From the NCBI GenBank assembly GCA_041736875.1, contig JBGSSV010000131.1, positions 6,820-70,819 of the forward strand: 64,000 bases of DNA, written 5' to 3'. Each line of letters opens with the position of its first letter. Positions within the stretch are counted from its first letter, which is position 1. The notes under the pieces are model-generated. The model made no database searches, had not been told where the DNA came from, and was given only the letters and a program-made list of their open reading frames with translations. Positions 33,100-64,000 of this stretch are shown piece by piece. The DNA comes from Chthoniobacterales bacterium (GTDB lineage: Bacteria > Verrucomicrobiota > Verrucomicrobiia > Chthoniobacterales > JACTMZ01). A program made the position numbers and the translations under genes.

Positions 33100-35067
33100 T
33101 CACGGCGGCGGTTGTCTGGAGACTCTCGTGCGGATGGTGCCGACAAGCCCGCGCAGGAAAGGCGGGGGGGCGTTGCAGGAGTTGGCGTCGAGCCGAATGT
33201 TCCTACTTTCGACGAGCAGGATGGGGAAACGCACGTCGGAGAGGATATCTTTGTCCGCGGGACCAAGAGAAAGCCGGGGGTCGGGGAGGGCGGAAAAATC
33301 ATAGTAGGCCGCGTGCTCGCCGCCGGCGAATGGGGCGGTGATGGAGTTCCCAGAAATGATGACGTCCTCAGTGTTTGTCACCAGAATGGCGAACCCGAAC
33401 GGGTGGTTGATCACATTGCGGAGAATCTTGATATCCCGATTGTGTGTCCCTCCGGTGAGCGTGCGGGGGAAGAGGCGCTTGCCGAAATGAGTGCCGACCT
33501 GGATCGCGGCATTGGAGGCCGACATTCCTTCGGGGTCGAAGGACGCCATGCCGGTTTCGGACAGCTGGTTGTCCACGATACGGATGCCGTGCGCGAACGA
33601 CCCCTCGAGCCAATATCCCTCGGGCTGGATCACGATGCCACCGTGTCCCGTCCGGGCGATCCGGTTGCCTTCGACAAGGGCGTTCTCGGTCTTGAGGAGC
33701 AGTCCGCGAATGTGGCCATCGTGGAAGTGTGAGTTGCGGATCACTGTCCCGGCTCCCGTATGGCTCGCACTGGAAACAAGATCGAGTTCCTCCGCGATGT
33801 CGGGGCGGTCGAGACGCACGCGGAAGACGGCGGGCGCGGGGAAACTGCGAGTCTGGATGCCAAGGCGCTCCATCAGTAACTCCGGCACAGCTTGCGCTCT
33901 GGCCACTGCGTCGGCTTCTGTGACTTCGTTCATTTCGAGGAGGGTGGCCTCCCGGGGCTCGCCATGTCCGTCGGCGGGCAGGAATTTCAACTTGGAGCCC
34001 TTGTCAAAGCTTCGTCTGAAGGGTGTCGCGATTAGAATCTCGTTCTGCGGGAGGACCTTGAGGACGACGGAGAAAAAGCTGTGGATGTTGAGCAGGTCGT
34101 CGCCGGTGTGGGAGAACTCACACCTCTCAATCAGCGGCCCCTTGCGCATGAGATACGAGTGGAATCCGTCCGCGCGGGCGGCCATGAGGCGGTCGGTGGC
34201 CGGGCGTCGGACGATGCGGCAGCCGAGGTATTTGTTGCCCCCGTTGCCACGGGTTTCCTGAAAGGCAAATCCCGAGGCGGCATGGATCGTAATGTTTTCG
34301 AGTGTGATGTCCTCGCAGGCCTCCAAGTGGACATTGCTGCCGTTGCCGTAGGTGGTGAAAAGGACGGCCAGATCGCCGACGCGCACCGGGCGCCCGGCGA
34401 CAGGATCACGGAAAACCCTGCCGGAACTCAGGCGGGAGACTTTGATCCGACGATCGCCCAGAGCTTCCATCTCGAGAGCCCAGTCGTCGGATACCTGGAG
34501 TTCCCTGCGAGTTTCGGGGTCGAAAAAAAGAAGGCGCCGTTTTTCCTGCAGGCCGGCACCCTCGAAGACTTCGTAGCCCGGCGAGACCCGAAATATGAGG
34601 GTGCGGGCCACCGGATCGAGATGCTCGATCACTCCCTGAGTCCAAGGCAGCTGTGACGAATCAATGGTCAATCCCTCAAGCCGGACCTCAGAGCAATCCT
34701 CAAACACCACGCCCCCATTTTGGCCAAACCAGAATGTTGCTCCTTCTGCTTCGATCGTGAACCCGTGTCGGCCCCGGAGATGAAAGCCGGGTTCCGCCGT
34801 GCCATCAAAGCGGTAGTCCCCGGGCGGGATTCGGAAAACTGTGGCTCCATCTGCCAGAGCAAGGTCCAGCGAGGCCCGCATCTCCTGGGCCGCCACGCGC
34901 TGACTGCGCATTTCTTCGTCGGTGAAGTCCGGCCCGCTCGACGCCTTCGCGACCGTCCTGTCTTGGCCAAAGTTTCGGGTGCTTCCTGGGTCCTCTCCGC
35001 CGAGGGCAGGCAGAACGAAGGCCAGCACGAGGAGCAGGGTGCGGCTGGACTGCAGGTGTCGAGGCAT
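33100..35067 (-). CDS. secreted right-handed beta-helix protein, GH110 alpha-galactosidase-like
   Basis: Signal peptide; IPPGDYR, GLTID…PWTQG and RADGFH…GP.IE.C.F…GDD..NIH. Confidence 0.85.
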   Translation of the reverse strand: MPRHLQSSRTLLLVLAFVLPALGGEDPGSTRNFGQDRTVAKASSGPDFTDEEMRSQRVAAQEMRASLDLALADGATVFRIPPGDYRFDGTAEPGFHLRGRHGFTIEAEGATFWFGQNGGVVFEDCSEVRLEGLTIDSSQLPWTQGVIEHLDPVARTLIFRVSPGYEVFEGAGLQEKRRLLFFDPETRRELQVSDDWALEMEALGDRRIKVSRLSSGRVFRDPVAGRPVRVGDLAVLFTTYGNGSNVHLEACEDITLENITIHAASGFAFQETRGNGGNKYLGCRIVRRPATDRLMAARADGFHSYLMRKGPLIERCEFSHTGDDLLNIHSFFSVVLKVLPQNEILIATPFRRSFDKGSKLKFLPADGHGEPREATLLEMNEVTEADAVARAQAVPELLMERLGIQTRSFPAPAVFRVRLDRPDIAEELDLVSSASHTGAGTVIRNSHFHDGHIRGLLLKTENALVEGNRIARTGHGGIVIQPEGYWLEGSFAHGIRIVDNQLSETGMASFDPEGMSASNAAIQVGTHFGKRLFPRTLTGGTHNRDIKILRNVINHPFGFAILVTNTEDVIISGNSITAPFAGGEHAAYYDFSALPDPRLSLGPADKDILSDVRFPILLVESRNIRLDANSCNAPPPFLRGLVGTIRTRVSRQPPP

Positions 35068-35123
35068 CGGTCCGGGGCAGTGTGGAGACGGCACGGCTCG
35101 GTGGAGAGGTGCTCGGTCCAAGG

Positions 35124-37196
35124 TCAGATCACTCGCAAGTGCACGTCCAAAGTTGAAGGGCTCAAGGGGTAGTCGAGCAGCCAGAGACCGGATCCGAGCG
35201 GAACCGCGGCGGGCGAGGCCGCCGAGAAGGGCTTGCCGCGTTCGGTCCAGACCAAAATGGGCCCCTGCTCCTGCGCGGTGAACTGACACCCGCGGGGTGT
35301 GGTCTCGAGCGCGGTGATGGCCGCCGGCCCCAGGAATTTGTCAGCGCGACCCAACACGGCCCAACCATGATGCAGCGTGGCAAGCCAGAACATCTCGTCA
35401 CCGAAATGAGGAATTTCGAAAGCCCATGTCTCCTCCGCCTCCAGTCGCCGCACCTCGCGAGTGTGCCAACGGAATGCGACGATCGGTCCGGATGATTCAA
35501 GCGGGTCAGGCAGCAATCGGAGGGCGTCTGCGAAGTCCGCGTGGCTGATTTCGCCCCGCACGGAGATTTCCGGCGAGGTCAGGTTGTAGGCTACGACGAC
35601 AGCGCTGTCTCGGTTCACGGGTGCGAGGACGCGGAAAGCTCGGTCGCTCTGGTAGGAGTCGATGAAGATGCTCTCGGGGGTGGGGACGGCGGGTTCGGCG
35701 GTGCGGAGGATGCGGCCGTCCGCGAGACAGAGGTGGCTGACGAGTTCGCGGTTGATATCGCCGGGGGCGTCGGAGAGGTAGATCGGCCCCCCCGAGACCG
35801 CTTTGCTGCGGGCCATGATCTCGGCGGCTGCCGGGTCGCTCGAGTGGAACATATCATGGTCGCCCCAGATCGTGCCGCGCATCCACAGCATGTTGGCGAA
35901 GGAGTTGTTGAGATGGTGCTTTGCCCTCCAGAGGTCACCCTTTTTGTAGTCCTCGCTGCAACGGGTCACGGCGCTGCGCCGCGTGTGGAAGTGGCAGAGA
36001 TTGTTGTGGGCCATGCAGTTGATCATGGCGTCCAGGCGGCCGGCGGCGGACTCCTCGAGCGCGGCGTGGTTGCTTGAACTGGCCAGCACCGCGTTGGGCA
36101 CCCGGCCGCGGTAGAACGTGAGGTTTTTCGCCTGGTTGTCCACCTTGAGGAAATCGAATCCCGCCGCCTCTTGAGCGGCAACGAGCGCATCGTAGAACCG
36201 ACGGGCATACTCCGATCCGGGTTTGGGTTGCAGCGTGCCCGGGGCGACCTCGAGCAGTGCTTCGTTGAGCGTTCCGAGTTCGTTGGGTGTGGCAATGCCG
36301 CCCCAATAGCCGTTGAAGTTGAGCCACACACCGAGCCAGCGGAAGCCGCACTCGCGGGCTCCGCGCATGACGGGGTCCCAGCCGTTGGGGAAGTGGGGAT
36401 GGTAAACCCCGAGGCTGTTGAGTCGGCGCTGGTCCTCACCGGTTGGGATCTCGCCTTCCGCGGTTGAGGGTGGTGACGCGCCCGGGGGAAAGCCGCCCCT
36501 CTCGTCGAGATGACCGTCGTCCGCCAGCACCCACCGCACCGGCACGCCCGTGGCAGCGAGGTCGCGGAAGGCCCTCACGAGAACGTCTTCGCTGATGTGC
36601 CAGTGGAATTCCTCCCAGGAGCACCAGCCGAGGTATTCGAAAATTTCGGGGAAGGTCTTGTCTCGGCGCAGGCCGAGGTTTCCGGCCACTTCGGGCTGTT
36701 TCGCTGCCTCTTCCCAGGCCCGGTCCACCGCTTCGTAAGGGTGGTGGGCCACAGCCCACACCAGCAAGGGGGCTGCGGGGGAGTGCAATCCGTCTGTTCC
36801 CCAGTGGTCCACCTCGAGGAGAAGTCCTTCGTCGTCTCCCCGCATCCATGCCATGTATTCGCCGGTAACAAGCGGCAGGAGTGCCAGAAACCGCCCGTCA
36901 TCCAGACGGGCCATGGTGAACATTCCGCCCCACTTCAATCCGGCCAATCGGCCCACCACAAGTGGTTGAGATTGGTTGTAGGCTTCCGGCCAGAGGTCGA
37001 GGTTGGGATCGATCGCGTGTTTCTGGATCGGCGCGAAGTAGCACGCCTCCGCGATGGGGGGAAGTTCCAGCCGGAAGATCGCAAGGGGGCCATCGCCCCG
37101 CGCCGCATCGAGGTCGGCGCGAAGATGCCCCGCGTCGCGTGCCTGGCTGCACTGGATTCGGAGTGAAGAATAGTTGGGGCGTTTTGGCATATTCAT
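35124..37196 (-). CDS. Sip1/raffinose-synthase-type GH36 alpha-galactosidase
   Basis: LGWCSWEEF, DDG, GYWGG, GFDFLKVDNQ, INCMA, RCSEDY, DHDMFHS and SGGPIYLSD. Confidence 0.9.
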   Translation of the reverse strand: MNMPKRPNYSSLRIQCSQARDAGHLRADLDAARGDGPLAIFRLELPPIAEACYFAPIQKHAIDPNLDLWPEAYNQSQPLVVGRLAGLKWGGMFTMARLDDGRFLALLPLVTGEYMAWMRGDDEGLLLEVDHWGTDGLHSPAAPLLVWAVAHHPYEAVDRAWEEAAKQPEVAGNLGLRRDKTFPEIFEYLGWCSWEEFHWHISEDVLVRAFRDLAATGVPVRWVLADDGHLDERGGFPPGASPPSTAEGEIPTGEDQRRLNSLGVYHPHFPNGWDPVMRGARECGFRWLGVWLNFNGYWGGIATPNELGTLNEALLEVAPGTLQPKPGSEYARRFYDALVAAQEAAGFDFLKVDNQAKNLTFYRGRVPNAVLASSSNHAALEESAAGRLDAMINCMAHNNLCHFHTRRSAVTRCSEDYKKGDLWRAKHHLNNSFANMLWMRGTIWGDHDMFHSSDPAAAEIMARSKAVSGGPIYLSDAPGDINRELVSHLCLADGRILRTAEPAVPTPESIFIDSYQSDRAFRVLAPVNRDSAVVVAYNLTSPEISVRGEISHADFADALRLLPDPLESSGPIVAFRWHTREVRRLEAEETWAFEIPHFGDEMFWLATLHHGWAVLGRADKFLGPAAITALETTPRGCQFTAQEQGPILVWTERGKPFSAASPAAVPLGSGLWLLDYPLSPSTLDVHLRVI

Positions 37197-37218
37197 AATC
37201 TGGATGGTGGCCTACACC

Positions 37219-38766
37219 TCACGCCAGCGGTTCGGGCTCAAAGTCCGTGGGGCTGACCCAGCCGGAATCAGGCACCTCGCCCCGCATGAACCGCTCGTAA
37301 AAGTTCCGCGCGTTCCCAGCGTAGGGATAGTTGTCAAAGTCCTCGCCGCGGCCAAACAGGCGCGGGTCGCCCTGCTTCTTGAGTTCGTCCATCATCAGGG
37401 CCTGCAGGGCGGCACGGCGGGGCTGATGCTTTGGAACCGCGGCCAGGTTGTTCATGCAATCCGGATCGGCATCCAGATCGAACAATTCTTCGGCCGGGCG
37501 CTTGCCGAAGCACAGCAACCAATGCGGATCACCGGGCTTGGCCCGATTTGCATTCAGAATTTCGGTCTTGGTCGGGCTTCCATCGGTATTGAGGTAACCT
37601 GTCTCGGGATTGCACGCGGGCCAGCGGTCCGGCTCGAAATTCCGCGAGTAGAGCCAACCATCCTTGATGATGCTGCGGATCGGATAGCCTTGGTCATGCG
37701 GACGTCCCACGTCGTGCCGTTCCTGCCCGAGCAGCAGGTGGTCGCGCGCCGGATTAGGTTGATCGGAGCGAAAAATATCAGTGAGACTGCGGCCGGTGAT
37801 TGGCGACATCCCGGACTGATCCCATGGCACACCGGCAACCTCGAGGAACGTCGGTGCGAGATCAATAAAGCTCACGTAATCCCGGACCACTCGCCCGGGT
37901 TGGCGGATTCCGTTTTTCCACATGACCGCGAAGGGCAGGTGATTGGCCGCCTCGTAGAGATTCCCCTTCACGCGTGGGAATGGCATCCCGTTGTCCGAGG
38001 TGACAACAACGAGCGTATTGTCCAACTGGCCGCGCTGCTCCAACTCGGCCAGCATTCTGCCGAGATGACGGTCGAAGTGCTCCACCGCCAGCGCGTAGTC
38101 GAGCAGGTCGTTGCGAACGGTCGCCGTGTCTGGCCAGTAGGGAGGAACCCGGTCGATGTCCGCGATCGCTTTCCCGCCCTTCGCCGCGCCGCTCCCATAT
38201 TCGTAAGGCCTGTGAGGCTCGCGGCATCCGAACCAGAAACACCAGGGCTCATTCCCCGGCGCAGCATCGAGGAAATCCTGAAAGTTTGCCGAGTAGTCAT
38301 TGGGGCTGATTCCAGTGGTCGGCGGGGGGGCGGTGCGTTGGTCAAAGGCCCGCCCTGTCAAAGGCCGGTCTTTTCCCTCGGCATCCAGCGCTACACCCGG
38401 AGCCCACCCTTTGCCAGTCATGCCGACGAAATAGCCGTGCTGGCCAAGGGCCTCGGCGTAGGTCGAATACTCCAAAGGAAAAAAACCTCCGTGATTTGCC
38501 GCTTCCTTGAGTTGCCAGGGGTTTCGTCCCGTGAGTAGGCCTGCCCGCGAAGGCGCGCACTTGGCGTTCGGCGTGTAGGCATTCTCAAAACGCAGCCCAT
38601 CCTGTGCCACACGGTCAAACGCAGGGGTTTGAATCCAGCTCCGTCCGTAGGCCCCGGCATCGCCGCAGCCCCAGTCATCGGCCAGCACGAAGAGGATGTT
38701 GGGACGATTCGCCAAGGAAGAGGATGGAGGCGGCGAGGCGGTGGAGGAAGAAAGGATAGGATTCAC
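37219..38766 (-). CDS. sulfatase (Cys-type S1, N-sulfamidase-like)
   Basis: [34 protein letters not shown] and [10 protein letters not shown]. Confidence 0.92.
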
Positions 38767-38784
38767 AGAGCTCTATACGTCCTC

Positions 38785-40425: not shown

Positions 40426-40651
40426 AGGTGGAATTGTGTTGGGTTCGATTGTGCGAGTGATGTCGCTGGGGAGAATTGGGCTGCCGTGCATTCACTGGGG
40501 TGCATCGTTGAACGATAAGCTTCGCCGCCCCGCGATGGGCAAGGGCGTTGCGACCAAGCAGTCAGGCCGGCTGAGCAACGAATATGAATCGACTAACAAA
40601 GTGGGCTGGAGGATAGGGTGATCGGGGGTGGTCATAACTCTTGTCCGTTGC

Positions 40652-47785: not shown

Positions 47786-47799
47786 GCGATCAGAATTGG

Positions 47800-47840
47800 C
47801 TTGAGCTCCGGAACCCCCTGTGAGCGGGGCCGGAGCCAAG
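47800..47840. other. strong intergenic stem-loop
   Basis: CTTG-A-GCTCCGG…CCGGAGC-CAAG with an inner CCCC/GGGG pair; no U-tract. Confidence 0.55.
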
Positions 47841-47874
47841 TCGGTCATTTACCCCAGCAGAATCTCCAAGCGCT

Positions 47875-50932: not shown

Positions 50933-50991
50933 ATGTCAACATGTGTCAGAATACTTGTTGATATTATTTATCGAGGATAGGGAGTCTGCAA
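50933..50991 (-). promoter_or_regulatory. AT-rich promoter with inverted-repeat operator
   Basis: TTGCAG-N17-AATAAT on the minus strand; inverted repeat ATGTCAACA-N14-TGTTGATAT at 50933-50964. Confidence 0.55.
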
Positions 50992-50999
50992 CAGTTTTT

Positions 51000-52113
<1,114 letters not shown>

Positions 52114-52136
<23 letters not shown>

Positions 52137-56928: not shown

Positions 56929-58365
56929 TCAAACGTCGAGGCTCTTGCCGAAGCGCCAGTTGAAAGCCGTGATGCAGAACAGCATGGCGAACAGCACCCA
57001 AGAGATAGCTGCGGCGTAGCCGAAGTTGAGGTCCTGAAATCCCACGGTGTAAATGTAGTAGCTCAGCGTCGTGGTGGCACCGGCCGGCCCGCCTCCGGTC
57101 ATCACCCGGGCCTGCTCGAAGCCGCCCTGCAGACCGCCGATGACCGAGACGATGGAGATGAAAAAGGTCGTGGGCGCGAGTTGCGGCCAGGTCACATGCA
57201 CGAACCGCTGCCAGCGGTTGGCCCCGTCGATCTCGGCCGCTTCTCCCAGCTCGACCGGCACGTTGGAGAGCGCAGCCAGATAGAGGAGCATGTTCGTGCC
57301 TCCGACCGCCGTCCAGAACCCCATGATCATGAGCGAGGGCTTGGCCAGTTCGATGCTGGCCAGCCATTGCGGCAATTCCGACGCGGGCAGGCCGGTGAGC
57401 ATGCCCAGCAGGGAGTTGATGGGGCCGGTTTGCGGATTGTAGAGCGCTTTCCACAGAATCATGAGGGCGACGCCGGAAGTGAACGAGGGGAGGTAAAAAA
57501 TCGTGCGGAAAGCCACGAGATTGAACGCGAAGCCGAGCGCGGCGATGACCCAAAGGACGGCGACGACGAGGGCGAAGTCGCGCGAGCCTGCCGCCCACAG
57601 GGCGAAGGCCATGACGCCGCCGCTGACGAGGCAGAGCCCCGCCGCCGCAGCCCCGCGGCCCGCCTTGACCGGCAGGTTGTCGGTGAGAAGAATTGCCAGC
57701 GCGAGTGATCCGGCCACGGCAAACGGAATGCCGAGCATCATGTAGAGTGTGTTGTAGAGGTAATACCAGAAGCGGGCGTCGTGCGGCTCGTGGGCGGACC
57801 ACATTGGTCCGTGCAGGAGCCAAAGTCCGGCGGTGCCGAGCAAAGCCGCGAGGGCGGGTAAGCTTCCCACGGACGGCGCCGGTCCGTCCTCATCCTCATT
57901 GGGTCGCCACAAGGCCCAGCCGAGCAGAGTGAGGACGGCGGCGATGATGTAGAGGCTGTGATGGCCGCCTGAGATTAGCGTCCCCACGGCCACGGCCAAC
58001 CCCGCGGCGAGAAAACCTCCGGCGCCGGCGCGTCCGGCCCGACTGCCGGTCATGGCCATCCAGACCGCTCCGATGATGCCGCACAACAGCAGCAGGGCGG
58101 CCACGAGATAGCCCGTGGCCAGCCACGGCGCCGCCTCGGCCCGGGCCGAGAACCAGAGGACGTCGGTGAAGTTGCGCAACCCGACGAACTCGCGCGGAAC
58201 CGAGGGTTTGAGCGTCCAGTTCGTGAAGGCCATCACGAGCGAAAAGACGACCGGAAAGAGCGTGAAGAGAAAAAATCCGAGGAAGTTCGGCAGGAGAAAG
58301 CCGAACACCGCCTTCGGTGGCCACTTGCGCCGCCGGTTCATACGGGGTGCCGCAGTGCTGCTCAC
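56929..58365 (-). CDS. carbohydrate ABC transporter permease (MalF-like) with extra TM insertions
   Basis: FLLPN, FVGLRNF, FRTIFYLP, EAAEIDGA and GGPAG.T; GTGA overlap with the upstream stop. Confidence 0.93.
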   Translation of the reverse strand: MSSTAAPRMNRRRKWPPKAVFGFLLPNFLGFFLFTLFPVVFSLVMAFTNWTLKPSVPREFVGLRNFTDVLWFSARAEAAPWLATGYLVAALLLLCGIIGAVWMAMTGSRAGRAGAGGFLAAGLAVAVGTLISGGHHSLYIIAAVLTLLGWALWRPNEDEDGPAPSVGSLPALAALLGTAGLWLLHGPMWSAHEPHDARFWYYLYNTLYMMLGIPFAVAGSLALAILLTDNLPVKAGRGAAAAGLCLVSGGVMAFALWAAGSRDFALVVAVLWVIAALGFAFNLVAFRTIFYLPSFTSGVALMILWKALYNPQTGPINSLLGMLTGLPASELPQWLASIELAKPSLMIMGFWTAVGGTNMLLYLAALSNVPVELGEAAEIDGANRWQRFVHVTWPQLAPTTFFISIVSVIGGLQGGFEQARVMTGGGPAGATTTLSYYIYTVGFQDLNFGYAAAISWVLFAMLFCITAFNWRFGKSLDV

Positions 58366-61300
58366 GGTGCCGCCTCCACTTCGACGTTGTTGAGCATTTT
58401 GTCGGCCAGCCCGTCTTCGCCCCAAGCCCCGATCTCCCAGGGATAAAGTTCCTTGCCTGGATCGGGCTGGATCGAGTTGTTCTCCTCGACCAGCCCGCGG
58501 ATCGAAGTCAGCAGCAGGCCCGGTTGGGCTCCGCCCGCCACGAGATTGTCCCGCAAGGTGATGTTCTTGAAGGCGCCGGCGGGTGCAATCGAACCATCAC
58601 CGCCGGTCGCGACGACCGCGATGCCCATGCCGCCGCCGTCGGTGATGCGGTTGCCCGCGATGATCAAATCCTCGGCCAGTCCGGCTTCCATCCACCAGTA
58701 TTCCGGAGTCACGCTGATGCCGGTCATGCGTGATCCCTCGATGTGATTGTTGGTGATCTCGCCGCGGCCGGCCTTGACAATGATGCCGCGCGAACGGTTC
58801 TGCCCGATGTGGCAGTTGCGGATAGCCAGGCCGTTCCCGATGGCGGCGGCGCTGCAGATCAGCGTGCCCGGCTCGACGTCCGACGCTGCGTCAAGAGTGA
58901 CAAGGAAGGCGGAATCCATGGCGTCCTTGCGCAAGTCCTCGTTCAGATTTTTCCCCAGCAGCATTGCGCGTTCCTCTGCGGTGATGGGGCCGTCGGCAGC
59001 GATCGAAGTCACGCGACGGTCGTCCGGTCTCCGCCCGTCCTCGGTGAAGAGTTGGACTTTGTCGTTCACTTGCAGGGTCATGGTCGATTTGGCGAGCACG
59101 CGCAGCGTGGAGCCCTCGACCCGGGTGATGTAGTGGAAGTCGCCGTTGACCGCAATGGCGTCATCGCCCATGAAGAAGGCGGAGCATTTGTCGTAGGTTG
59201 GTCCGCTCCGCGCGTTCTTTGAGTGGAACGCATCCGCATTCATCGAGCGCAGGCGCCGATGGCTGCGCAGGCGTGAATCCTCTCCGGGGGCGCGGCGGTC
59301 GATGCGGCAATTCCGATAACGCGAGCCCTCGCAACCGTTCTCGAGGAAGCCGAAGCTGTTGCTGGCATAGAGGGTGATATCCTCCAGAACCAGACCCTTG
59401 CTCCTGGTGGCGTAAACGGCATGGGGAATGCTGCCTCCGGGCGCGAAACTTGTCTTGATGACGGCGATATCGCCCACTTGCTCCGTGGCAAAATCTCCGC
59501 CTGTGCTCGATTTGATCAGCACCGCCCGCGCCGGGCCGTCGGGTTCACAGCGCGTGCTGTAGTAAGTGAGGCGGCCGCGCAGGCTGTCCGTGGCGGGATC
59601 GAAAATTTCCACCGATCCAATCGTGGCCACGGGCTCGGGGTAGCCCTCGAAAATTTCCACCTCCAGGCGGCTCTTGTCGGCCGAGATCGCGGTGATGCGC
59701 CCCTGGGTGTAGGGCAGCGGATCATAGTCGATGGTCAGTCCACGGATCGTGAGATTTTCGCAGTCGTCGATGGTGAGCGCGCGCGTCGTTTGCGTGCAGA
59801 GCATCTCCACGCCGTCGGCGATGATGACGGTGTCCTTGAGTCCGCGAAGACGCAGGTGCTGCTGTTGGACCGGGCCGACGCGGTAGCGCCCGGGCGGGAT
59901 GACGATCTGCTTGAGGCCCGCGGCCACCGCCTCCGCGATCAGGTTAGGGAGCGCGTCCAGATTGCCCTCGGTTCTGGGCGCGGGCCCCGGCGCCATGACC
60001 GCCTGAACGCGGAAGAACTCTCGGTTGGTCGCGGCGACGGCAAACTCCTTCCTCTCGTAGTCCGCAGGAGCGGGAAGGCCGGCCTGGTTGTCCGCGTTGG
60101 TGATCGTCACCGCCGCGTTGGTCCAGGGCCCGTTGACCAGGTTCGTGGTCGCCTGCACCACGTAATCCACGCCACCCGGCGGGCTTTTGCGCGCGACGTA
60201 GCTGAAAACCGTTTCGGCGCCGGTGCTCCTCGCGGTGAGCAAGGTGCCGTCTCCGCCCACCGGATTGCCGGCAAACGCCAGCTCCACGGTGTTGTTGAAG
60301 GTGTCCGCATCCGGGTCAGCCGATCCCGCCGTGTCGGTGAAGCTTGGGTCCACCTCCTGCCAATCGCCGACCCACTCCGCATAGTGGTCCGTGACGGCAG
60401 ACTGCACGGTGAGAACGCCGTTGGACTGGGCGAAAACGTAGGTGGCGTTGTTGGTCGTGTTGGTCCACAGGCCCCCGCTGCCGCTGAAACCGCTGACCAG
60501 GAAATTTGGGCCGTAGGAGTTGGTGAGGCCCGGGGCCACGATGGTCCAGGTGTCGCCCGTGCGGTTGGACGCACCGCTCAGGTCGAACTCGAACCGCCCG
60601 TCATTGTGCACGGTCCCTGTGCCACGGAGGAAGTTGTCGAGCCCCGGGGCGCCGATGGCGAATCGCATGACGGCGTTCTCAGCGAGTGTGAGCGAACCCT
60701 CGCCAACGATCAGCTGGCCTGTCTGGGTGTTTGTTCCGCGCAGCACGAGTGTGCCCGCGCCGGTCTTGTTCAGGCTGCCAATGCCCGCGACTTGACCGGC
60801 AAAGAACAGAGTCCCGGCGCCCCGGGGGTCCACCCGCACTGTGGCCGTGCCTCCGCCCAAAATGAGGTTGCCCCGCAGGGTCTGAGGGTTGGTGGCGAAG
60901 GTGCTGGCGAGCTCGGCCCCGCCCGCGAGGACGATGTTCTCGCTGTTGGTCAAAGCCGAGGAGGTGTTGTTGAAAAATTGCAGGCTTGCGTTGGAGGCCA
61001 CCAACGTGGCCGCGTTGGCGTCGCCGAAAGGTGTGCTGCTGTTCACCGCCACCACGCTGCCCTCCTCGACTCTGAGCGTCCCCAGGGAGGTTGTGCCTAT
61101 GTTGATGATGAATTGGTTGGTGCCGACCTTGGTCAGAGTGTTGGTGCCGCCGCTGATGACCGTGCCTCCGAACGAGGTGTCGAAGCGCGCCGTGCCCCCG
61201 ACCGACGCGTCCGCGCTCAAGGCCAGCCGGAACCCCGAGGCGGAGTTGCTGCCGAGGTTGACCAGTGCGCCCTTGCCCCCCATGCCCGCACCGCTGACGG

Positions 61301-61772
61301 TGACCGTTTCGCCCCCGAGGCTGCGCGCGTTGAGGTCGAGGGTTGCGCCGTTCTCGACCGTGGTGCCGCCGGTGGTGAGGCCCAAGGCGTTGCTGTTGCC
61401 CACCCGCAGGAGGCCCTGCGAAATGATCGTAATGCCGTTGTAGCTGTTGGAGGCGGATAGGGCCAGGGTGCCTCCGCCGGATTTGGTCAGTCCGGCCGTG
61501 CCGCTGCTGTTGGAGAGCCTGCCGGTCATGGTCGCCGTGTTCGTCGGCACCGTGACGGTGAGATTGGTCCCGCCCAGATCGATGGCGTTGGTGAAGACAA
61601 GGTTGGTGCTGTTGTTCGGCGGGGTAAGTATCAGATTCGTGGAACCCTTGGCCAGCCCGCCAGCGGCGAAGAAACAGACCAAGGGAGCCAGCCAAAAGAG
61701 GGTAAGGGCGGGGAAATTCGGAGGAAGGAAATCGAGGACACCCCTCGGTGGAAATTTCCCGCCGTTCCTCAT
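58362..61772 (-). CDS. chimeric secreted protein: autotransporter-repeat stalk + internal 'C-terminal' domain + GH110-like beta-helix
   Basis: N-terminal part aligns by eye with the C-terminal ~600 aa of 47875-50901; C-terminal part aligns with 61769-63619 (RSMNADAFHSKNAR.GP…GDDA.A.NGDFH). Confidence 0.88.
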   Translation of the reverse strand: MRNGGKFPPRGVLDFLPPNFPALTLFWLAPLVCFFAAGGLAKGSTNLILTPPNNSTNLVFTNAIDLGGTNLTVTVPTNTATMTGRLSNSSGTAGLTKSGGGTLALSASNSYNGITIISQGLLRVGNSNALGLTTGGTTVENGATLDLNARSLGGETVTVSGAGMGGKGALVNLGSNSASGFRLALSADASVGGTARFDTSFGGTVISGGTNTLTKVGTNQFIINIGTTSLGTLRVEEGSVVAVNSSTPFGDANAATLVASNASLQFFNNTSSALTNSENIVLAGGAELASTFATNPQTLRGNLILGGGTATVRVDPRGAGTLFFAGQVAGIGSLNKTGAGTLVLRGTNTQTGQLIVGEGSLTLAENAVMRFAIGAPGLDNFLRGTGTVHNDGRFEFDLSGASNRTGDTWTIVAPGLTNSYGPNFLVSGFSGSGGLWTNTTNNATYVFAQSNGVLTVQSAVTDHYAEWVGDWQEVDPSFTDTAGSADPDADTFNNTVELAFAGNPVGGDGTLLTARSTGAETVFSYVARKSPPGGVDYVVQATTNLVNGPWTNAAVTITNADNQAGLPAPADYERKEFAVAATNREFFRVQAVMAPGPAPRTEGNLDALPNLIAEAVAAGLKQIVIPPGRYRVGPVQQQHLRLRGLKDTVIIADGVEMLCTQTTRALTIDDCENLTIRGLTIDYDPLPYTQGRITAISADKSRLEVEIFEGYPEPVATIGSVEIFDPATDSLRGRLTYYSTRCEPDGPARAVLIKSSTGGDFATEQVGDIAVIKTSFAPGGSIPHAVYATRSKGLVLEDITLYASNSFGFLENGCEGSRYRNCRIDRRAPGEDSRLRSHRRLRSMNADAFHSKNARSGPTYDKCSAFFMGDDAIAVNGDFHYITRVEGSTLRVLAKSTMTLQVNDKVQLFTEDGRRPDDRRVTSIAADGPITAEERAMLLGKNLNEDLRKDAMDSAFLVTLDAASDVEPGTLICSAAAIGNGLAIRNCHIGQNRSRGIIVKAGRGEITNNHIEGSRMTGISVTPEYWWMEAGLAEDLIIAGNRITDGGGMGIAVVATGGDGSIAPAGAFKNITLRDNLVAGGAQPGLLLTSIRGLVEENNSIQPDPGKELYPWEIGAWGEDGLADKMLNNVEVEAAP

Positions 61773-63619
61773 GGCTGGCCGGCCGGTTCGACGTTGACCC
61801 GCATTTCCGGTTCGAGGCCCCCGCGGCCCCAGACGCCGATTTCCCAAGGATTGAGTTCCTTGTCCGGGTCGGGCCGGATCGTGTTGTTTTCTTCGACCAG
61901 ACCGCGGATCGAGGTAAGCAGGAGTCCCGGTTGGGCGCCGCCCTCGATGGTGTTGTTGATCAGCTTGATGTTGTTGAAGGCTCCGGCCGGAGCCAACGTG
62001 CCATCGCCGCCCACCGCAACGATCGCGATGCCCATGCCGCGACCCTCGGTGATGACATTGTCCGCGATGATCAAGTCATCCGCCATGCCGGCCTCTAGCC
62101 ACCAGTATTCCGGTGAGATCAAGATGCCGCTCATCACGGAACCGGTGATTTTGTTGCCGGTGATTTCGCCGCGGCCGGCCTTGACGAGGATGCCACGCGA
62201 GCGGTTCCAGCCGAGTCGGCAATTGCGGATGGAGAAGCCGTTTCCGATGCCGTCGGCGTCGCAAATGGCGGTCGCTAATCCGACGCCTTCCGCCTCGGCA
62301 TCCAGCACCACGCGGTAGGCGTCGTTAAGTGATTCGCGCTTCATGTTCGGGTTGAGGTTGCGACTGATCAAATCCTCGCGCTCCTCCTTGGTGATTTGGC
62401 CGTCGGGCTCGATCGAAACAATGCGGCGGTTGGCGGGTCGCTTTCCCTCGACCGTGAGAAACTGCACGGTGTCGCCTGCGCGCATCCGCATGACTTCCTT
62501 GGCCAGCACGCGGAGGGAGGTTCCTTCGGCCTTGGTCACAAAGTGGAAATCGCCATTGATCGCGAAGGCGTCGTCGCCCTGGTGGAAGGCCACGCACTCC
62601 TCATACGACGGCCCCTGCCGTGCGTTCTTCGAATGGAAGGCGTCGGCGTTCATCGAGCGCAAGCGGGGCATGGCGCGGACCACCGGGTCGCTCTCGGGCG
62701 CAAGGCGTTCCACCCGGCAGCGGAGGTAGCGCGAGTTGTTGCAGCTGTTCTCGAAGAACCCGAAGGTCGGGCCGGAGTGCAGAGTGATGTCTTGAAAGAC
62801 CAGTCCCTCGCTGTCTGACGCCATGATGGCATGAGGCTGGAAGCCGCCGGGCGCATACTTCACGCTGATCACCGCGATATCGCCGACACGCTCGAAGGCA
62901 AACTCTTCGGTGTTGCGGGCCTTGGTGATGACGGCGCGCATCGGGCCATCCATCGTGCAGTTCGCGGCGTAGTGGGTGATCCGGGCGCGGAGCCGCCCGG
63001 TCTCCGGGTTGAAGATCTCGATCGAGCCGTTCACCTCGCCGGGTTCGGCGTAACCGTCGATGATTTCGGTCGTGAAGCGTTTGGTGTCCTCCGAGATCTC
63101 CACGATCCGTCCTTGGGTGAAGGGGAGGGGATCGTAGTCAATGGTGAGGCCTCGGAGGGTGAGGTTGCGGCAGTTCTTGATGGTGATTGCCCGGGTGGTC
63201 TCGGTGCAGACCATCTCGACTCCGTCCATCACCAGCGTCACATCCTCCAAGCCCTCCAGGAGCAAGTGAGCCATGTTTTGTGGAACGACGCGGTAACGTC
63301 CGGGAGGGACAGTGACCGTCTTCTCCCCCGCGGCAAGGGCGCTGGTGATGATCTCCCGCAGGTCGGCCAGAACCTCCCCCGCAGCAGGTGCCAGCGCGGG
63401 GGCTGGGGCGGGTTGTGGCGTTGCCGTTGGTTGGACCGGAGTAGTGGCTGGGGAGGTTGGCACGGAGTGGGCAGTTTCCGCGGGTGCCGACACCACGGAA
63501 TTGGCTGGTGGTTCTGGCTCGGCGGCCGGCGGCGGCGCTGCGGGAGGTTGGCGGCAGCCAGCGCAGGCCAGTGCGGCCAGGCACGTGAGGGTGAGGAGAT
63601 GGTGGGTCTTGGATTCCAT
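61769..63619 (-). CDS. lipoprotein with Pro/Ala linker and GH110-like beta-helix domain
   Basis: LACAGC lipobox, Pro-rich spacer, PPGRYR, GLTIDYDPLPFTQG and NADAFH…GDD. Confidence 0.88.
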   Translation of the reverse strand: MESKTHHLLTLTCLAALACAGCRQPPAAPPPAAEPEPPANSVVSAPAETAHSVPTSPATTPVQPTATPQPAPAPALAPAAGEVLADLREIITSALAAGEKTVTVPPGRYRVVPQNMAHLLLEGLEDVTLVMDGVEMVCTETTRAITIKNCRNLTLRGLTIDYDPLPFTQGRIVEISEDTKRFTTEIIDGYAEPGEVNGSIEIFNPETGRLRARITHYAANCTMDGPMRAVITKARNTEEFAFERVGDIAVISVKYAPGGFQPHAIMASDSEGLVFQDITLHSGPTFGFFENSCNNSRYLRCRVERLAPESDPVVRAMPRLRSMNADAFHSKNARQGPSYEECVAFHQGDDAFAINGDFHFVTKAEGTSLRVLAKEVMRMRAGDTVQFLTVEGKRPANRRIVSIEPDGQITKEEREDLISRNLNPNMKRESLNDAYRVVLDAEAEGVGLATAICDADGIGNGFSIRNCRLGWNRSRGILVKAGRGEITGNKITGSVMSGILISPEYWWLEAGMADDLIIADNVITEGRGMGIAIVAVGGDGTLAPAGAFNNIKLINNTIEGGAQPGLLLTSIRGLVEENNTIRPDPDKELNPWEIGVWGRGGLEPEMRVNVEPAGQP

Positions 63620-63624
63620 GAAGA

Positions 63625-63999
63625 TCAATAATTTCCGTTGCAGAACTTCCAACGTTTCTCAAAAACGTTGCCGATGGGCACATTTTCCTCCGGCATGCGC
63701 GCCCATTCCTCCGCTGTGTGGGCCGTCACGCGGCCGTCTGCCCAGAGCACGTGGCCCCGGCCATTGTGCCTCGTGGCAAAGGATGTGCCGTTGCTCTGCG
63801 ATGCATTCGGATCAAAGACGTTGGCGAGACCGCCGTAAAAGTTGTTCTGGAAAACGACGTCGATCAGCACCGGAAGTTTGGCCAGCCGCTGCACGGCGGA
63901 GACGCGGTCCACGTTGTGATTGTTGGCTTTGAAAGTATCCCGGTTGCTGTTCAATTGGGCATTGTAACCATAATGCATCGGATACCGTGGGTCGCTGGG
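63625..63999 (-). CDS. prepilin-like H-X9-DG (DUF1559-type) protein, 3' part only
   Basis: Frame is open to the window edge; HYGYN and RHNGRGHVLWADG (H-X9-DG) motifs. Confidence 0.85.
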   Translation of the reverse strand, partial: PSDPRYPMHYGYNAQLNSNRDTFKANNHNVDRVSAVQRLAKLPVLIDVVFQNNFYGGLANVFDPNASQSNGTSFATRHNGRGHVLWADGRVTAHTAEEWARMPEENVPIGNVFEKRWKFCNGNY

Positions 64000-64000
64000 C

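What the first reader, a model, noticed from the sequence alone, without database searches (positions are those of the whole stretch)
33100..64000. SusCD-free glycan-capture island: pilin-like H-X9-DG protein + stalked/lipoprotein beta-helix enzymes + ABC importer + cytoplasmic trimming enzymes
Seen in sequence: more than 30 kb of co-oriented genes, many joined by 4-nt start/stop overlaps. They encode five GH110-like beta-helices, GH36, a GH28-like enzyme, two sulfatases, three esterases, a full sugar ABC system, two autotransporter-repeat proteins and an H-X9-DG gene. No TonB receptor or SusD is present in the window. Established: GH110 and GH36 are alpha-galactosidase families, and Bacteroidota PULs depend on SusCD. 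Inference: this is a PVC-type utilisation machine for a sulfated, O-acetylated alpha-galactose-rich glycan, in which pilin-like and stalk proteins could take over the capture role of SusCD.
Basis: partly seen in the sequence, partly recalled or inferred. Interest (0 to 1): 0.75.

Follow-up and report, generated by a model that had tools for sequence, protein, structure and literature searches.

The report
Verrucomicrobial sulfated-galactan operon with pilin-like gene
This is a real 31-kb sugar-polymer degradation operon of a hot-spring Chthoniobacter-like bacterium that works without the usual outer-membrane receptor, uses a large uncharacterised sister group of the GH110 alpha-galactosidases, and begins with a pilus-subunit-like gene whose role is still unknown.

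Summary
Window 33100-64000 is one minus-strand run of 18 genes. It runs 437 bases past the window end, to a divergent sugar regulator with a conserved palindrome. The content is as listed, with these corrections:
- Only one beta-helix is a true GH110 (PDB 7jw4, E 2.6e-115).
- The other four belong to a large unnamed sister clade that keeps the GH110 fold and its three catalytic aspartates.
- A third sulfatase is a remnant fused to a beta-helix gene.
- The PATR proteins have no autotransporter barrel.

No TonB-dependent receptor was found in this genome, and it was found in 1 of 24 other genus genomes searched.

The H-X9-DG protein has a type IV pilin or pseudopilin fold. Similar genes sit beside 4 of the 7 LacI/GntR-type regulators of this genome and inside sugar operons of relatives.

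The full four-way combination (pilin-like gene, ABC importer, beta-helix, PATR) occurs only in this genome and one congener. A capture role for the pilin is untested. Export of the operon's surface enzymes is at least as likely, and has been suggested in print for a related bacterium.

Verdict: a new variant of the known SusCD-free verrucomicrobial glycan locus, of moderate interest.

The parts
63625..64000 (-). H-X9-DG / DUF1559 prepilin-like gene, the first gene of the operon. It is cut by the window end; the whole gene runs to window 64437 (270 aa).
   Evidence: Motif RHNGRGHVLWADG. Whole ORF. PF07596 scores 27.1 bits against a cut-off of 23.3. Close homologues are named H-X9-DG protein by JGI. 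Pilin-type model and fold matches.
61769..63619 (-). bh5: a lipoprotein with a Pro/Ala/Thr-rich linker and a GH110-like catalytic module.
   Evidence: Lipobox and hydrophobic N-terminus. Residues 1-68 of the model are disordered. The profile matches only GH110 chains in the PDB. All top Foldseek rows are GH110, E 5.8e-25 to 1.0e-22.
58362..61772 (-). bh4: a PATR beta-strand-repeat stalk, a conserved module of about 230 aa, and a GH110-like catalytic module.
   Evidence: PATR and Beta_helix hits. Residues 630-1161 are 58.5% identical to bh5, and residues 115-620 are 56% identical to the C-terminal half of patr1.
56929..58341 (-). ABC permease 1 (MalF/UgpA-like, with a long N-terminal extension).
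   Evidence: BPD_transp_1; UgpA and MalF hits.
56080..56925 (-). ABC permease 2 (MalG/UgpE-like).
54716..56083 (-). Extracytoplasmic sugar-binding protein.
   Evidence: SBP_bac_1, E 3.8e-36. Hydrophobic N-terminus.
53787..54719 (-). Exported DUF4886 (SGNH-like) esterase.
   Evidence: PF16227, E 6.4e-38. Hydrophobic N-terminus. No collinear orthologue in G001.
52114..53790 (-). bh3: canonical GH110 alpha-1,3-galactosidase with no signal peptide.
   Evidence: PDB 7jw4 (PdGH110B), E 2.6e-115 over residues 10-546. GLAA-B barrel domains I and II. No hydrophobic N-terminus.
51000..52175 (-). MalK/UgpC-type ABC ATPase.
   Evidence: ABC_tran, OB_MalK and TOBE_2. UgpC, 485 bits.
47875..50901 (-). patr1: a secreted PATR-repeat protein of 1008 aa with a conserved C-terminal module and no barrel domain.
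   Evidence: PATR in 4 stretches. The C-terminal 229 aa are 52-87% identical in the other 119 of the 120 listed proteins; one row is the query itself.
46271..47848 (-). sulf2: an S1 sulfatase with no signal peptide.
   Evidence: Sulfatase, E 1.8e-51. CTPSR motif. No close characterised relative in the PDB.
44242..46308 (-). Exported SASA-type carbohydrate esterase.
   Evidence: PF03629. Hydrophobic N-terminus. No collinear orthologue in G001.
43213..44241 (-). AXE1-type acetyl esterase with no signal peptide.
   Evidence: PF05448, E 7.9e-18..
40652..43216 (-). bh2: a lipoprotein-like GH110-like enzyme fused to a sulfatase C-terminal fragment.
   Evidence: Beta_helix together with Sulfatase profile positions 224-296 only. 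GTGA overlap start and lipobox. The three Asp are kept.
38785..40425 (-). Exported GH28-like enzyme in a low-GC segment.
   Evidence: PF00295, E 5.6e-16. GC is 0.539 in 38001-40000. No collinear orthologue in G001.
37219..38766 (-). sulf1: an S1 sulfatase with no signal peptide, nearest to S1_8.
   Evidence: Sulfatase, E 3.7e-41. CAPSR motif. PDB 9bb9 (S1_8A), E 1.2e-29 across nearly the whole length.
35124..37196 (-). GH36-type (raffinose-synthase-like) alpha-galactosidase candidate with no signal peptide.
   Evidence: PF05691, E 4.1e-42. PDB 7exf, E 1.1e-40.
33100..35067 (-). bh1: an exported GH110-like enzyme, the last gene of the run.
   Evidence: Beta_helix. 27-28% identical to bh4 and bh5. 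The three Asp are kept. Signal peptide.

Best explanation
This is a substrate-inducible glycan utilisation operon that works without a TonB-dependent receptor. It belongs to a Chthoniobacter-like verrucomicrobium.

Regulation. A divergent GntR-HTH/LacI-type sugar-sensing regulator, acting through a conserved TTGAC-N16-GTCAA palindrome, most likely controls a promoter in front of the pilin-like gene.

Outside the cell. Tethered enzymes attack a sulfated, O-acetylated polymer containing alpha-linked galactose. These are two or more GH110-like inverting glycosidases held on a lipid anchor with a Pro/Ala/Thr linker or on a PATR stalk, plus exported esterases and a GH28-like enzyme.

Import. Oligosaccharides cross the outer membrane by an unknown route. 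A sugar-binding protein and a MalFGK-type ABC importer then take them up.

Inside the cell. A canonical GH110 alpha-1,3-galactosidase, a GH36-type enzyme, two sulfatases and an AXE1 esterase finish the breakdown.

The pilin-like protein. The H-X9-DG protein is a type IV pilin or pseudopilin-like subunit made together with the operon. My preferred reading (about 0.4) is that it works with the cell's type II secretion or type IV pilus machinery to bring the operon's surface proteins to or through the outer membrane.

What is shown: the gene families, the fold, the catalytic residues, the predicted compartments and the recurrence. What is inferred: the substrate, co-transcription, and any role of the pilin-like protein.
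For: - Junctions are tight, with 5 of 17 being 4-nt overlaps.
- Compartments: hydrophobic N-termini on the pilin-like protein, bh1, bh2, bh4, bh5, SBP, DUF4886, SASA, GH28 and patr1. None on GH110, sulf1, sulf2, AXE1, GH36 or the ATPase.
- All five beta-helices keep the three aspartates that are catalytic in PdGH110B. The bh5 model (pLDDT 87.3) matches GH110 chains over about 600 columns, E 5.8e-25 to 1.0e-22; the next fold is at 1.8e-8.
- 13 of 18 genes, plus the regulator and a small CBM-like gene, are collinear in congener G001.
- A canonical GH110 lies in 14 of 78 loci that hold a bh5-like gene, and a sulfatase in 21 of 78.
- The palindrome is conserved in 7 of 7 orthologous intergenic regions.
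- No TonB receptor was found.
- Secretins, a prepilin peptidase, GspF/PilC and FGE-family genes are present in the genome.
- In print: PMC13274419 (passages) reports a pulG-like pseudopilin inside an alginate-induced cluster, with 67 paralogues, and its authors suggest type II export of the lyases.
Against: - There are no expression data: no RNA run is listed.
- The promoter and terminator scan was no better than shuffled sequence.
- No beta-galactosidase or known endo-galactanase is in the locus.
- The sulfatases have only distant characterised relatives.
- Five genes (DUF4886, SASA, bh2, GH28, bh1) are absent from the congener's locus, so the run is a mosaic and may serve more than one substrate.
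- The pilin-like protein has Ala, not Gly, before the FTLIE motif and lacks both nearly invariant cysteines of its family.
- Some paralogues sit in operons whose only enzymes are cytoplasmic (C115). That fits a secretion role less well.
Confidence: 0.6

Rival explanations
1. Capture or uptake fibre. The H-X9-DG pilin, perhaps with the small CBM-like protein and the PATR proteins, forms a surface fibre. The fibre binds the glycan and hands it, or drags it by retraction, to the periplasm. In a lineage without TonB receptors it would replace SusCD.
For: - The fold is pilin-like: 23 of the top 24 VIA rows are pilins or pseudopilins.
- The genus lacks TonB receptors.
- 4 of the 7 LacI/GntR-type regulators of G000 lie within 2 kb of a prepilin-like ORF; 1 of 20000 permutations reaches that.
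- In relatives such genes are flanked by small secreted CBM96- or LamG-like proteins and by MFS or SBP transport genes.
- One paralogue sits in a heme-uptake operon.
- Dextran binds pili-like fibres of Planctomycetes (PMC5394234, passages).
Against: - Nothing here shows binding, fibre formation or uptake.
- The VIA Z scores are low (at most 5.3), and Foldseek gave no match at E <= 0.001.
- The pilin-like gene is directly linked to bh5-like genes mainly in one clade, with 7 strong orthologues among 78 loci.
- Only 6 of 14 further H-X9-DG genes examined lie in glycan operons.
Confidence: 0.25
2. The substrate is not an alpha-galactan. The run is a patchwork serving several substrates, or a pectin-, rhamnogalacturonan- or EPS-type polymer. 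The GH110-like clade would then have a different specificity.
For: - A GH28-like gene with rhamnogalacturonidase or polygalacturonase-type hits lies in a low-GC insert.
- Five genes are missing from the congener.
- The GH110-like clade is only 14-16% identical to solved GH110 enzymes, so its -1 subsite specificity is unknown.
- The fold and catalytic machinery are shared with GH28, GH49 and GH87 (PMC7939477, passages).
Against: - The conserved core in the congener keeps GH110, the GH36-type enzyme and both sulfatases.
- bh5-like genes sit with a canonical GH110 in 14 of 78 loci across Verrucomicrobiota, Planctomycetota and Kiritimatiellales.
- bh3 matches GH110B of the lambda-carrageenan cascade closely, and sulf1 is nearest to the S1_8 sulfatases of that cascade.
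Confidence: 0.2
3. The pilin-like gene has no part in glycan use. It is one of many paralogues of a general envelope protein family that happens to sit behind regulated promoters.
For: - The family is large: 84 matches in five genomes.
- Contexts are mixed: GroEL, nos genes, Feo and unknown neighbours.
- The G000 copy has lost both conserved cysteines.
Against: - The orthologue keeps its place as first gene behind the conserved palindrome in 7 of 7 loci.
- The regulator adjacency is far above chance.
- A pseudopilin was among the 17 proteins over-expressed on alginate in Verruconatronum (PMC13274419).
Confidence: 0.15

Closest known systems
Lambda-carrageenan PUL of Pseudoalteromonas distincta U2A (GH110A/B, S1_8 and S1_15 sulfatases, GH2, GH150). 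Sources: PMC7939477 (passages) and PMC12549532 (abstract, outline and passages).
   Same: bh3 matches PdGH110B at E 2.6e-115 with D321/D344/D345 conserved. sulf1 is nearest to S1_8A. The logic is the same: desulfation must precede exo-alpha-galactosidase action.
   Different: There is no GH150 endo-enzyme, no GH2 beta-galactosidase and no S1_15 here. Four GH110-like enzymes of an uncharacterised clade are present instead. Import is by an ABC system, and the finishing enzymes lack signal peptides. The host is a hot-spring or freshwater-type verrucomicrobium.
SusCD-free 'PUL-like' and TonB-linked CUT loci of Verrucomicrobiota. Sources: PMC8857213 and PMC5615132, passages.
   Same: CAZymes, sulfatases, inner-membrane transporters and regulators are clustered without SusD.
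   Different: The freshwater CUT loci described there contain TonB-dependent receptors. Here none was found in the genome, and in 1 of 24 other genomes of the genus.
Alginate-induced cluster of Verruconatronum alginivorum with a pulG-like pseudopilin. Source: PMC13274419, passages.
   Same: A PulG-like pseudopilin gene from a large paralogous family lies inside a substrate-induced CAZyme cluster of a verrucomicrobium. Type II secretion is proposed for the enzymes.
   Different: The order, substrate and enzymes all differ, and that organism has TonB systems. The relation of its pseudopilin to this H-X9-DG protein was not tested here.
Bacteroidota SusC/SusD polysaccharide utilisation loci (recalled).
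   Same: One regulated locus combines surface enzymes, binding proteins, import and finishing enzymes.
   Different: There is no SusC or SusD. Import is by an ABC system, and part of the desulfation and hydrolysis is cytoplasmic.
Pullulanase PulA and the Pul type II secretion system of Klebsiella (recalled).
   Same: A lipoprotein glycosidase is put on the cell surface by a pseudopilus-based machine under sugar regulation.
   Different: Here only a single pseudopilin-like gene sits in the operon. The machinery genes lie elsewhere in the genome. Nothing was tested.

Membership tests
GH110 (for bh3, 52114-53790) | Sequence similarity to characterised GH110 over the whole catalytic chain | tested here: met
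   7jw4 at E 2.6e-115 over residues 10-546. Six further GH110 entries at E 1e-114 to 1e-64.
GH110 (for bh3) | Catalytic Asp-321, Asp-344 and Asp-345 of PdGH110B | tested here: met
   The TADATH and DDATN motifs align. The residue roles are from PMC7939477.
GH110 (for bh1, bh2, bh4, bh5) | Right-handed beta-helix with the GH110 chain architecture | tested here: met
   This applies to the bh5 model only. All listed Foldseek rows down to rank 14 are GH110, with TMq 0.57-0.67 and about 600 columns. bh1, bh2 and bh4 were not folded.
GH110 (for bh1, bh2, bh4, bh5) | The three catalytic aspartates | tested here: met
   Invariant in the five-way alignment and across 26 family members. Aligned to the GH110 motifs.
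GH110 (for bh1, bh2, bh4, bh5) | Recognisable by family-level sequence models (Pfam GLAA-B barrel domains; pairwise match to GH110) | tested here: not met
   GLAA-B domains were found only in bh3. bh5 alone matches a single GH110 chain at E 0.0053. I therefore file these as a sister clade, not as GH110 members. CAZy itself could not be consulted.
GH110 (all five) | Alpha-1,3-galactosidase activity with inversion | not testable with these tools
   Needs enzyme assays.
H-X9-DG / DUF1559 prepilin-type family | Prepilin-type N-terminal motif with Glu at position 5, and the C-terminal H-X9-DG motif | tested here: met
   AFTLIELL and H-NGRGHVLWA-DG. PF07596 scores 27.1 bits against a cut-off of 23.3. 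The residue before Phe is Ala, not Gly.
H-X9-DG / DUF1559 prepilin-type family | Match to the curated NCBIfam model of the H-X9-DG domain | tested here: inconclusive
   No such row at E <= 0.001. JGI gives that name to homologues 69-73% identical.
Type IV pilin / type II pseudopilin | Long N-terminal helix packed on a beta-sheet | tested here: inconclusive
   Model pLDDT 81.9, helix 29-79. 23 of the top 24 VIA rows are pilins or pseudopilins, but Z is at most 5.3. Foldseek E is at least 0.26.
Type IV pilin / type II pseudopilin | Cleavage by prepilin peptidase and assembly into a fibre | not testable with these tools
   The peptidase, secretins and platform genes exist in the genome.
Bacteroidota-type PUL | Adjacent SusC-like TonB-dependent transporter and SusD-like gene | tested here: not met
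   None among the window ORFs. PF00593 and PF07715 were not found in the genome.
Carbohydrate-uptake (MalFGK-type) ABC importer | Two BPD_transp_1 permeases, an SBP_bac_1 binding protein, and an ATPase with MalK OB/TOBE domains | tested here: met
Classical (type Va) autotransporter | C-terminal beta-barrel translocator domain | tested here: not met
   Only PATR repeats were found in patr1 and bh4 at E <= 0.01. The C-terminus of patr1 is a conserved soluble-looking module.
S1 formylglycine sulfatases (sulf1, sulf2) | Sulfatase domain with the C-x-P-x-R motif, and a maturase in the genome | tested here: met
   CAPSR and CTPSR motifs. PF00884. 10 FGE-family matches in the genome.

The most novel reading that the evidence does not exclude
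In a verrucomicrobial genus that has lost TonB-dependent receptors, substrate-specific H-X9-DG pilin-like proteins form sugar-induced fibres. These would be assembled by type II secretion or type IV pilus machinery, together with small secreted lectin-like or PEP-CTERM proteins. The fibres would catch polymers (and perhaps heme) and deliver them across the outer membrane. That would be a TonB-independent counterpart of SusCD, and would give DUF1559, one of the largest PVC families of unknown function, its first function.
Probability: 0.2. Interest if true: 0.85.

Novelty: new variant of a known kind. Interest (0 to 1): 0.5.

Why it matters
Three testable points come out of an otherwise ordinary sugar-degradation locus.

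1. A large sister clade of GH110 has no characterised member. It has 1053 cluster representatives at E <= 1e-30 and 386 confirmed stretches in species genomes. It keeps the GH110 fold and catalytic aspartates, is exported, and often sits beside a cytoplasmic GH110 and sulfatases. It is therefore a good candidate for the missing first-attack enzymes on sulfated galactans outside Bacteroidota.

2. A whole genus appears to feed on polymers without any TonB-dependent receptor. How oligosaccharides cross its outer membrane is open.

3. The H-X9-DG/DUF1559 pilin-like family has no known function in the papers I could search. Here it is tied statistically to sugar regulators and sugar operons. That gives a concrete locus for knock-out, proteomic and binding experiments.

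Tried and rejected
- Complex prediction (H-X9-DG globular part with the CBM-like protein) was not available.
- No RNA holder is listed for the stretch, so I did not lay reads.
- The promoter and terminator consensus scan over 32500-51200 gave counts no higher than shuffles.
- The whole-genome search for PF07596 returned nothing, although the protein itself passes the Pfam cut-off. That route is insensitive for this family, so I used regex, tblastn and a profile instead.
- My first strict regex for H-X9-DG genes missed the known orthologue in L006. phmmer replaced it.
- phmmer with the regulator alone found only 3 regulators. A four-sequence HMM replaced it and found 7.
- Foldseek found no match at E <= 0.001 for the pilin-like model.
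- The operator-like pattern has no second copy in the window and only one conserved copy in the genome.
- NCBIfam gave no equivalog-level name to any of the enzymes.
- Script one search returned no answer. I repeated it.
Full report
**Where the window lies.** The window is G000:C139:6820-70819 on a 73,288-bp contig. The draft genome has 218 contigs and 3.55 Mb, with completeness 89.98% and contamination 1.59%. The nearest record with a title is a MAG labelled uncultured Chthoniobacter sp. It is the same 78,947-bp contig as G001:C4. Other close loci are labelled Terrimicrobiaceae or Chthoniobacterales. The DNA stands in runs labelled hot springs or biofilm metagenome. These may be its source, and no RNA holder is listed. 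Window 1-33000 holds housekeeping genes: argH, tatC, rpoA, uvrB, rpoN, pyrB, tgt, pfk, ilvD and others.

**Check of the observation.** From 33100 to the window end there is one minus-strand run of genes.

With starts refined by eye and by start-codon search, the 17 junctions are as follows:
- five are 4-nt overlaps (bh5/bh4, perm2/SBP, SBP/DUF4886, DUF4886/GH110, AXE1/bh2);
- two are longer overlaps;
- the gaps run from 0 to about 226 nt.

The H-X9-DG gene is cut by the window end. Only its last 124 residues, with the motif H-NGRGHVLWA-DG, lie inside. On the contig it is a 270-aa ORF ending at window 64437.

Beyond it, on the other strand, lie two genes:
- A regulator with a GntR-type helix-turn-helix and a LacI-type Peripla_BP_3 sugar-binding domain. 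Its listed ORF is at window 64459-65628. Its true start must lie further in, because the palindrome described next overlaps the first codons of that ORF.
- A small secreted protein of about 206 aa counted from its likely start, with weak CBM_4_9 likeness (Pfam E 0.005). Its nearest Atlas clusters are called carbohydrate-binding protein (a lead only).

The contig ends about 200 bases later. In the congener G001 the next 18 kb hold a PhoD-like protein, a PATR protein, a sulfatase, a GH116-like protein and an integrase. They hold no receptor.

**The head of the operon.** I aligned the regulator/pilin intergenic region of G000 with six orthologous loci. All 7 share an inverted repeat, TTGAC-N16-GTCAA in G000 (spacer), embedded in ATGTTGACG...ATGTCAACAT. 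In G000 it lies at contig 71281-71306, which is window 64462-64487, a few tens of bases upstream of the pilin-like gene's start. The loose pattern has no copy in the window and five copies in the genome, of which only this one is conserved across loci. I read it as the regulator's operator, possibly overlapping a -35-like element. That is inference. It does place the pilin-like gene as the first regulated gene.

**The five beta-helix proteins.** They are paralogues. bh4 and bh5 are 58.5% identical over 533 residues, and the other pairs are 22-28% identical over 270-560 residues.

bh3 (52114-53790) is a canonical GH110:
- It matches PdGH110B (7jw4) at E 2.6e-115 over residues 10-546, and eight further GH110 sequences.
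- It carries the Pfam GLAA-B barrel domains.

The other four are remote relatives:
- bh5 alone finds a single GH110 chain at E 0.0053.
- A profile of 26 family members finds nine distinct PDB sequences, all GH110 or annotated alpha-1,3-galactosidases, at E 3.7e-13 to 1.7e-11. It aligns RSLNADAFH with STTADATH and GDDAIAINGD with KDDATNIHG.
- In PdGH110B, Asp-344 is the general acid, and Asp-321 and/or Asp-345 activate the water (PMC7939477, passages). The numbering fits the alignment.
- These three aspartates are invariant in the 26-member alignment (D326, D349, D350 of bh5) and in all five window paralogues.
- The AlphaFold model of bh5 has mean pLDDT 87.3 and pTM 0.84, with residues 1-68 disordered. 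All its listed Foldseek rows down to rank 14 are GH110 chains, at E 5.8e-25 to 1.0e-22, TMq 0.57-0.67, about 600 columns and 14-16% identity. The next fold, the AlgE4 epimerase, is at 1.8e-8, followed by BT_1002, GH28 and GH87.

So 'GH110-like' is right for all five. Four of them, however, belong to a sister clade that family-level models do not recognise.

That clade is large and unnamed:
- 836 of 8000 scored candidates reach E <= 1e-5, and the 120 listed carry no name beyond hypothetical or beta-helix repeat protein.
- 386 of 430 pattern-matched stretches in the species-genome collection encode a relative.
- 1053 cluster representatives reach E <= 1e-30, and 3337 reach E <= 1e-10.
- Titles of the 78 kept loci name Verrucomicrobiota, Planctomycetota, Kiritimatiellales, Lentisphaerae, Armatimonadota and a few others.

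I could not consult CAZy, so the clade may already have a family number.

**Anchors and compartments.** A simple hydrophobicity and lipobox screen was run on the refined N-termini.

Exported or membrane-bound:
- the pilin-like protein;
- bh5 (lipobox, then a Pro/Ala/Thr-rich stretch that the model leaves disordered);
- bh4, bh2 (lipobox), bh1 and patr1;
- the SBP, DUF4886, SASA and GH28;
- the two permeases.

Without any signal: bh3 (GH110), both sulfatases, AXE1, the GH36-type protein and the ATPase.

No dedicated predictor was available, so it rests on a heuristic.

The architecture of bh4 is a PATR-repeat stalk, then a module of about 230 aa, then the catalytic part. The module is 56% identical to the C-terminal half of patr1. 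In the other 119 of the 120 listed proteins (one row is patr1 itself) it is 52-87% identical, and most of these are annotated by JGI as autotransporter-associated beta strand proteins. Neither PATR protein has a barrel domain, so they are not classical autotransporters.

**Other enzymes and the substrate.**
- sulf1 is nearest to S1_8-type sulfatases: human SGSH at E 6.7e-30, and S1_8A of the lambda-carrageenan cascade at E 1.2e-29 over nearly the whole length.
- sulf2 has only distant characterised relatives.
- The GH36-type protein matches a plant raffinose-synthase-type structure at E 1.1e-40.
- Ten FGE-family matches in the genome could mature the sulfatases.

In Pseudoalteromonas distincta, GH110B needs prior 2-O-desulfation by an S1_8 enzyme (PMC12549532, passages). 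The pairing of a GH110B-like enzyme with an S1_8-like sulfatase recalls that logic. But the locus has no GH150, GH2 or S1_15, so it is not a lambda-carrageenan locus.

A sulfated, O-acetylated polymer with alpha-linked galactose is the best guess. In a hot-spring mat, microbial exopolysaccharide is a plausible source. Both points are inference.

**Recurrence of the locus.**
- In congener G001, 13 of the 18 genes are collinear at 65-89% identity, along with the regulator and the CBM-like gene. DUF4886, SASA, bh2, GH28 and bh1 have no collinear orthologue.
- GH28 lies in a segment of GC 0.539, against 0.61-0.67 around it.
- With the bh5 catalytic part as query, 2 of 24 other genomes of the genus matched at E <= 1e-10, one of them weakly. 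None of 16 genomes from other families of the order matched.

Among 78 loci holding a bh5-like gene (flanks up to 10 kb, many shorter):

| Feature in the locus | Loci |
|---|---|
| Canonical GH110 | 14 |
| Any sulfatase hit | 21 |
| DUF4886 | 5 |
| Strong orthologue of the pilin-like gene, directly upstream | 7 (all Chthoniobacterales-type titles) |
| Any weaker H-X9-DG-like ORF | 21 |
| Regulator of this type | 11 |
| CBM-like gene | 6 |
| ABC importer genes | 1 (the congener) |
| PATR relative of patr1 | 2 |

The core of GH110-like enzyme, GH110 and sulfatase does recur.

**No TonB-dependent receptor.**
- Neither the barrel family (PF00593) nor the plug family (PF07715) was found in G000. 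Both families ring in E. coli, Caulobacter and Bacteroides controls.
- PF00593 was found in 1 of 24 other genomes of the genus, against 9 of 16 genomes from other families of the order.
- These are draft genomes and a sample, so the right wording is 'not found in those searched'.

**The pilin-like protein.**
- It passes the Pfam DUF1559 cut-off, 27.1 against 23.3 bits.
- Its N-terminus resembles GspG, PilA and Verru_Chthon cassette protein D, but only over the helix.
- Homologues 69-73% identical are named H-X9-DG protein by JGI.
- It has Ala, not Gly, before FTLIE, and it lacks both nearly invariant cysteines of the family alignment.
- The model (pLDDT 81.9, pTM 0.77) has a helix at residues 29-79 followed by a mixed alpha/beta head.
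- The top Foldseek rows are type IV pilins, but at E >= 0.26 and over 60-100 columns.
- VIA-align against 48,161 chains gives 23 pilins or pseudopilins among the top 24 rows: PilA4 at Z 5.3, EpsG at 4.4, PulG at 3.6. These Z values would mean little on their own.
- No periplasmic binding-protein fold appears among the listed rows, despite the Pfam name SBP_bac_10.
- The genome has four secretin genes, one prepilin peptidase and three GspF/PilC genes.

**Is the pilin-like gene linked to sugar use?**

In G000:
- A regex found 26 prepilin-like ORFs, one of them evidently false.
- I annotated ten loci: the island plus nine fetched. The nine were tblastn hits of the island's protein or regex hits of 189 aa or more. 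I left out the hits in the multi-pilin clusters on C53, C59, C70 and C120, and other short ones.
- Five of the ten lie in sugar operons: C139 (the island); C115 with GH65, MFS_2 and PATR; C129 with a LamG-like protein, PATR and GH29; C150 with AXE1, a sulfatase, GH130 and GH5; C166 with GH42 and Glyco_hydro_cc.
- One (C47) lies between two secreted proteins and a heme oxygenase plus a heme-type binding protein.
- The other four are in unrelated or unknown contexts.
- An HMM of four regulators finds 7 LacI/GntR-type regulators in the genome. Four of them lie within 2 kb of a prepilin-like ORF, and 1 of 20000 random placements reaches that.

In five other genomes:
- A profile search gave 84 matches.
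- I kept the 15 that cover the model to its H-X9-DG end, dropped the 69 partial ones, and set aside the orthologue.
- Of the 14 remaining, 6 lie in glycan operons with rhamnosidases, a heparinase-like protein, fucosidase, sulfatases, MFS_2 transporters or LacI regulators (L093, L095, L097, L099, L101, L104).
- One lies beside an anion-type binding protein (L096), one beside a phytase-like gene (L106) and one beside FeoAB (L103). Five are in other or unknown contexts.

The genes just upstream are often small secreted proteins. Six of the 14 neighbour proteins I printed end in a PEP motif, a hydrophobic stretch and an Arg-rich tail. I call that PEP-CTERM-like by eye and from memory; no model was run. 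The island's own CBM-like protein has no such tail.

Kin are not independent. These counts show a tendency, not a rule.

**What is in print.**
- 'H-X9-DG' occurs in 1 paper of the library, which is unrelated.
- 'DUF1559' occurs in 4 papers. The three whose passages I read only list the family as large and of unknown function.
- The Verruconatronum alginivorum paper (PMC13274419, passages) reports a pulG-like pseudopilin gene inside an alginate-induced cluster, with 67 homologues in the genome. A pseudopilin was among the 17 proteins over-expressed on alginate. The authors suggest that type II secretion exports the lyases.
- Boedeker et al. (PMC5394234, passages) showed gold-labelled dextran on pili-like fibres of two planctomycetes and speculated on uptake through crateriform structures.
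- SusCD-free PUL-like clusters and TonB-linked CUT loci of Verrucomicrobiota are described (PMC8857213 and PMC5615132, passages).
- I did not see supplements for any of these papers.

**Earlier notes of this scan**. I read these after my own analysis. They describe the same regulator/lectin-like/pilin-like trio on another contig of this genome, similar cassettes in Planctomycetota and Armatimonadota, and the same GH110 sister clade in another verrucomicrobium. They are AI notes and not independent evidence. One of them led me to the Verruconatronum paper.

**Verdict.**
- The SusCD-free reading is supported and widened to a TonB-receptor-free genus.
- The substrate call is reasonable but unproven.
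- The capture role of the pilin-like and stalk proteins remains a hypothesis. It stands at about 0.25, against about 0.4 for a role in exporting or displaying the operon's surface proteins.
- The locus is a new variant of a known kind.
- Its most useful products are a large uncharacterised GH110-like clade ready for enzymology, and a well-defined regulated locus for testing what H-X9-DG proteins do.

Noticed in passing
window 40652-41220 (C-terminal part of bh2): The beta-helix gene bh2 continues in frame into a fragment of about 180 aa that matches only the C-terminal subdomain of an S1 sulfatase. The fragment is 47% identical to the end of a full sulfatase elsewhere on the congener's contig. 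It looks like a remnant left by a rearrangement, not a working sulfatase.
   Followed up: partly
window 38785-40491: The GH28-like gene lies in a segment of GC 0.539, against 0.61-0.67 around it, and it is missing from the congener's locus. It is probably a recent insertion.
   Followed up: partly
L084 (G000:C47:1-4993): An H-X9-DG prepilin-like gene sits between two secreted proteins (one with a PEP-CTERM-like tail) and a heme oxygenase plus a Peripla_BP_2 binding protein. This is a heme-uptake-type operon with no TonB receptor in a genome where none was found.
   Followed up: partly
L102 2455-3282 (-) and L106 5751-6788 (+): A secreted 275-345-aa protein with a PEP-CTERM-like tail is 63% identical between two different families of the order. 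In both it lies directly upstream of an H-X9-DG gene, although the other neighbours differ (nos genes in one, a phytase-like gene in the other).
   Followed up: partly
contig C139:71281-71306 (window 64462-64487, just outside the window): An inverted repeat, TTGAC-N16-GTCAA, lies between the regulator and the pilin-like gene and is conserved in 7 of 7 orthologous loci. It is a candidate operator.
   Followed up: yes
window 47875-48564 and 59990-60700 approx.: A module of about 230 aa forms the C-terminus of patr1 and lies in the middle of bh4. It is 52-87% identical in the other 119 of the 120 listed PATR proteins of very different lengths. It contains a DxDxD-like acidic stretch. Its function is unknown.
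   Followed up: partly
L001 2445-3257 (-): The island's H-X9-DG protein has lost both nearly invariant cysteines of its family. The corresponding alignment columns read Ser in this copy. It also has Ala instead of Gly before the FTLIE motif.
   Followed up: no
whole genus (G001-G024): TonB-dependent receptor barrels were found in only 1 of 24 other genomes of the genus, against 9 of 16 genomes from other families of the same order.
   Followed up: partly
window 52114-52175: The listed ATG of the ABC ATPase gene overlaps the end of the GH110 gene by 62 nt. An internal Met would still leave an overlap of about 23 nt by my reckoning (that start was not computed in a call). The true start is uncertain.
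   Followed up: no
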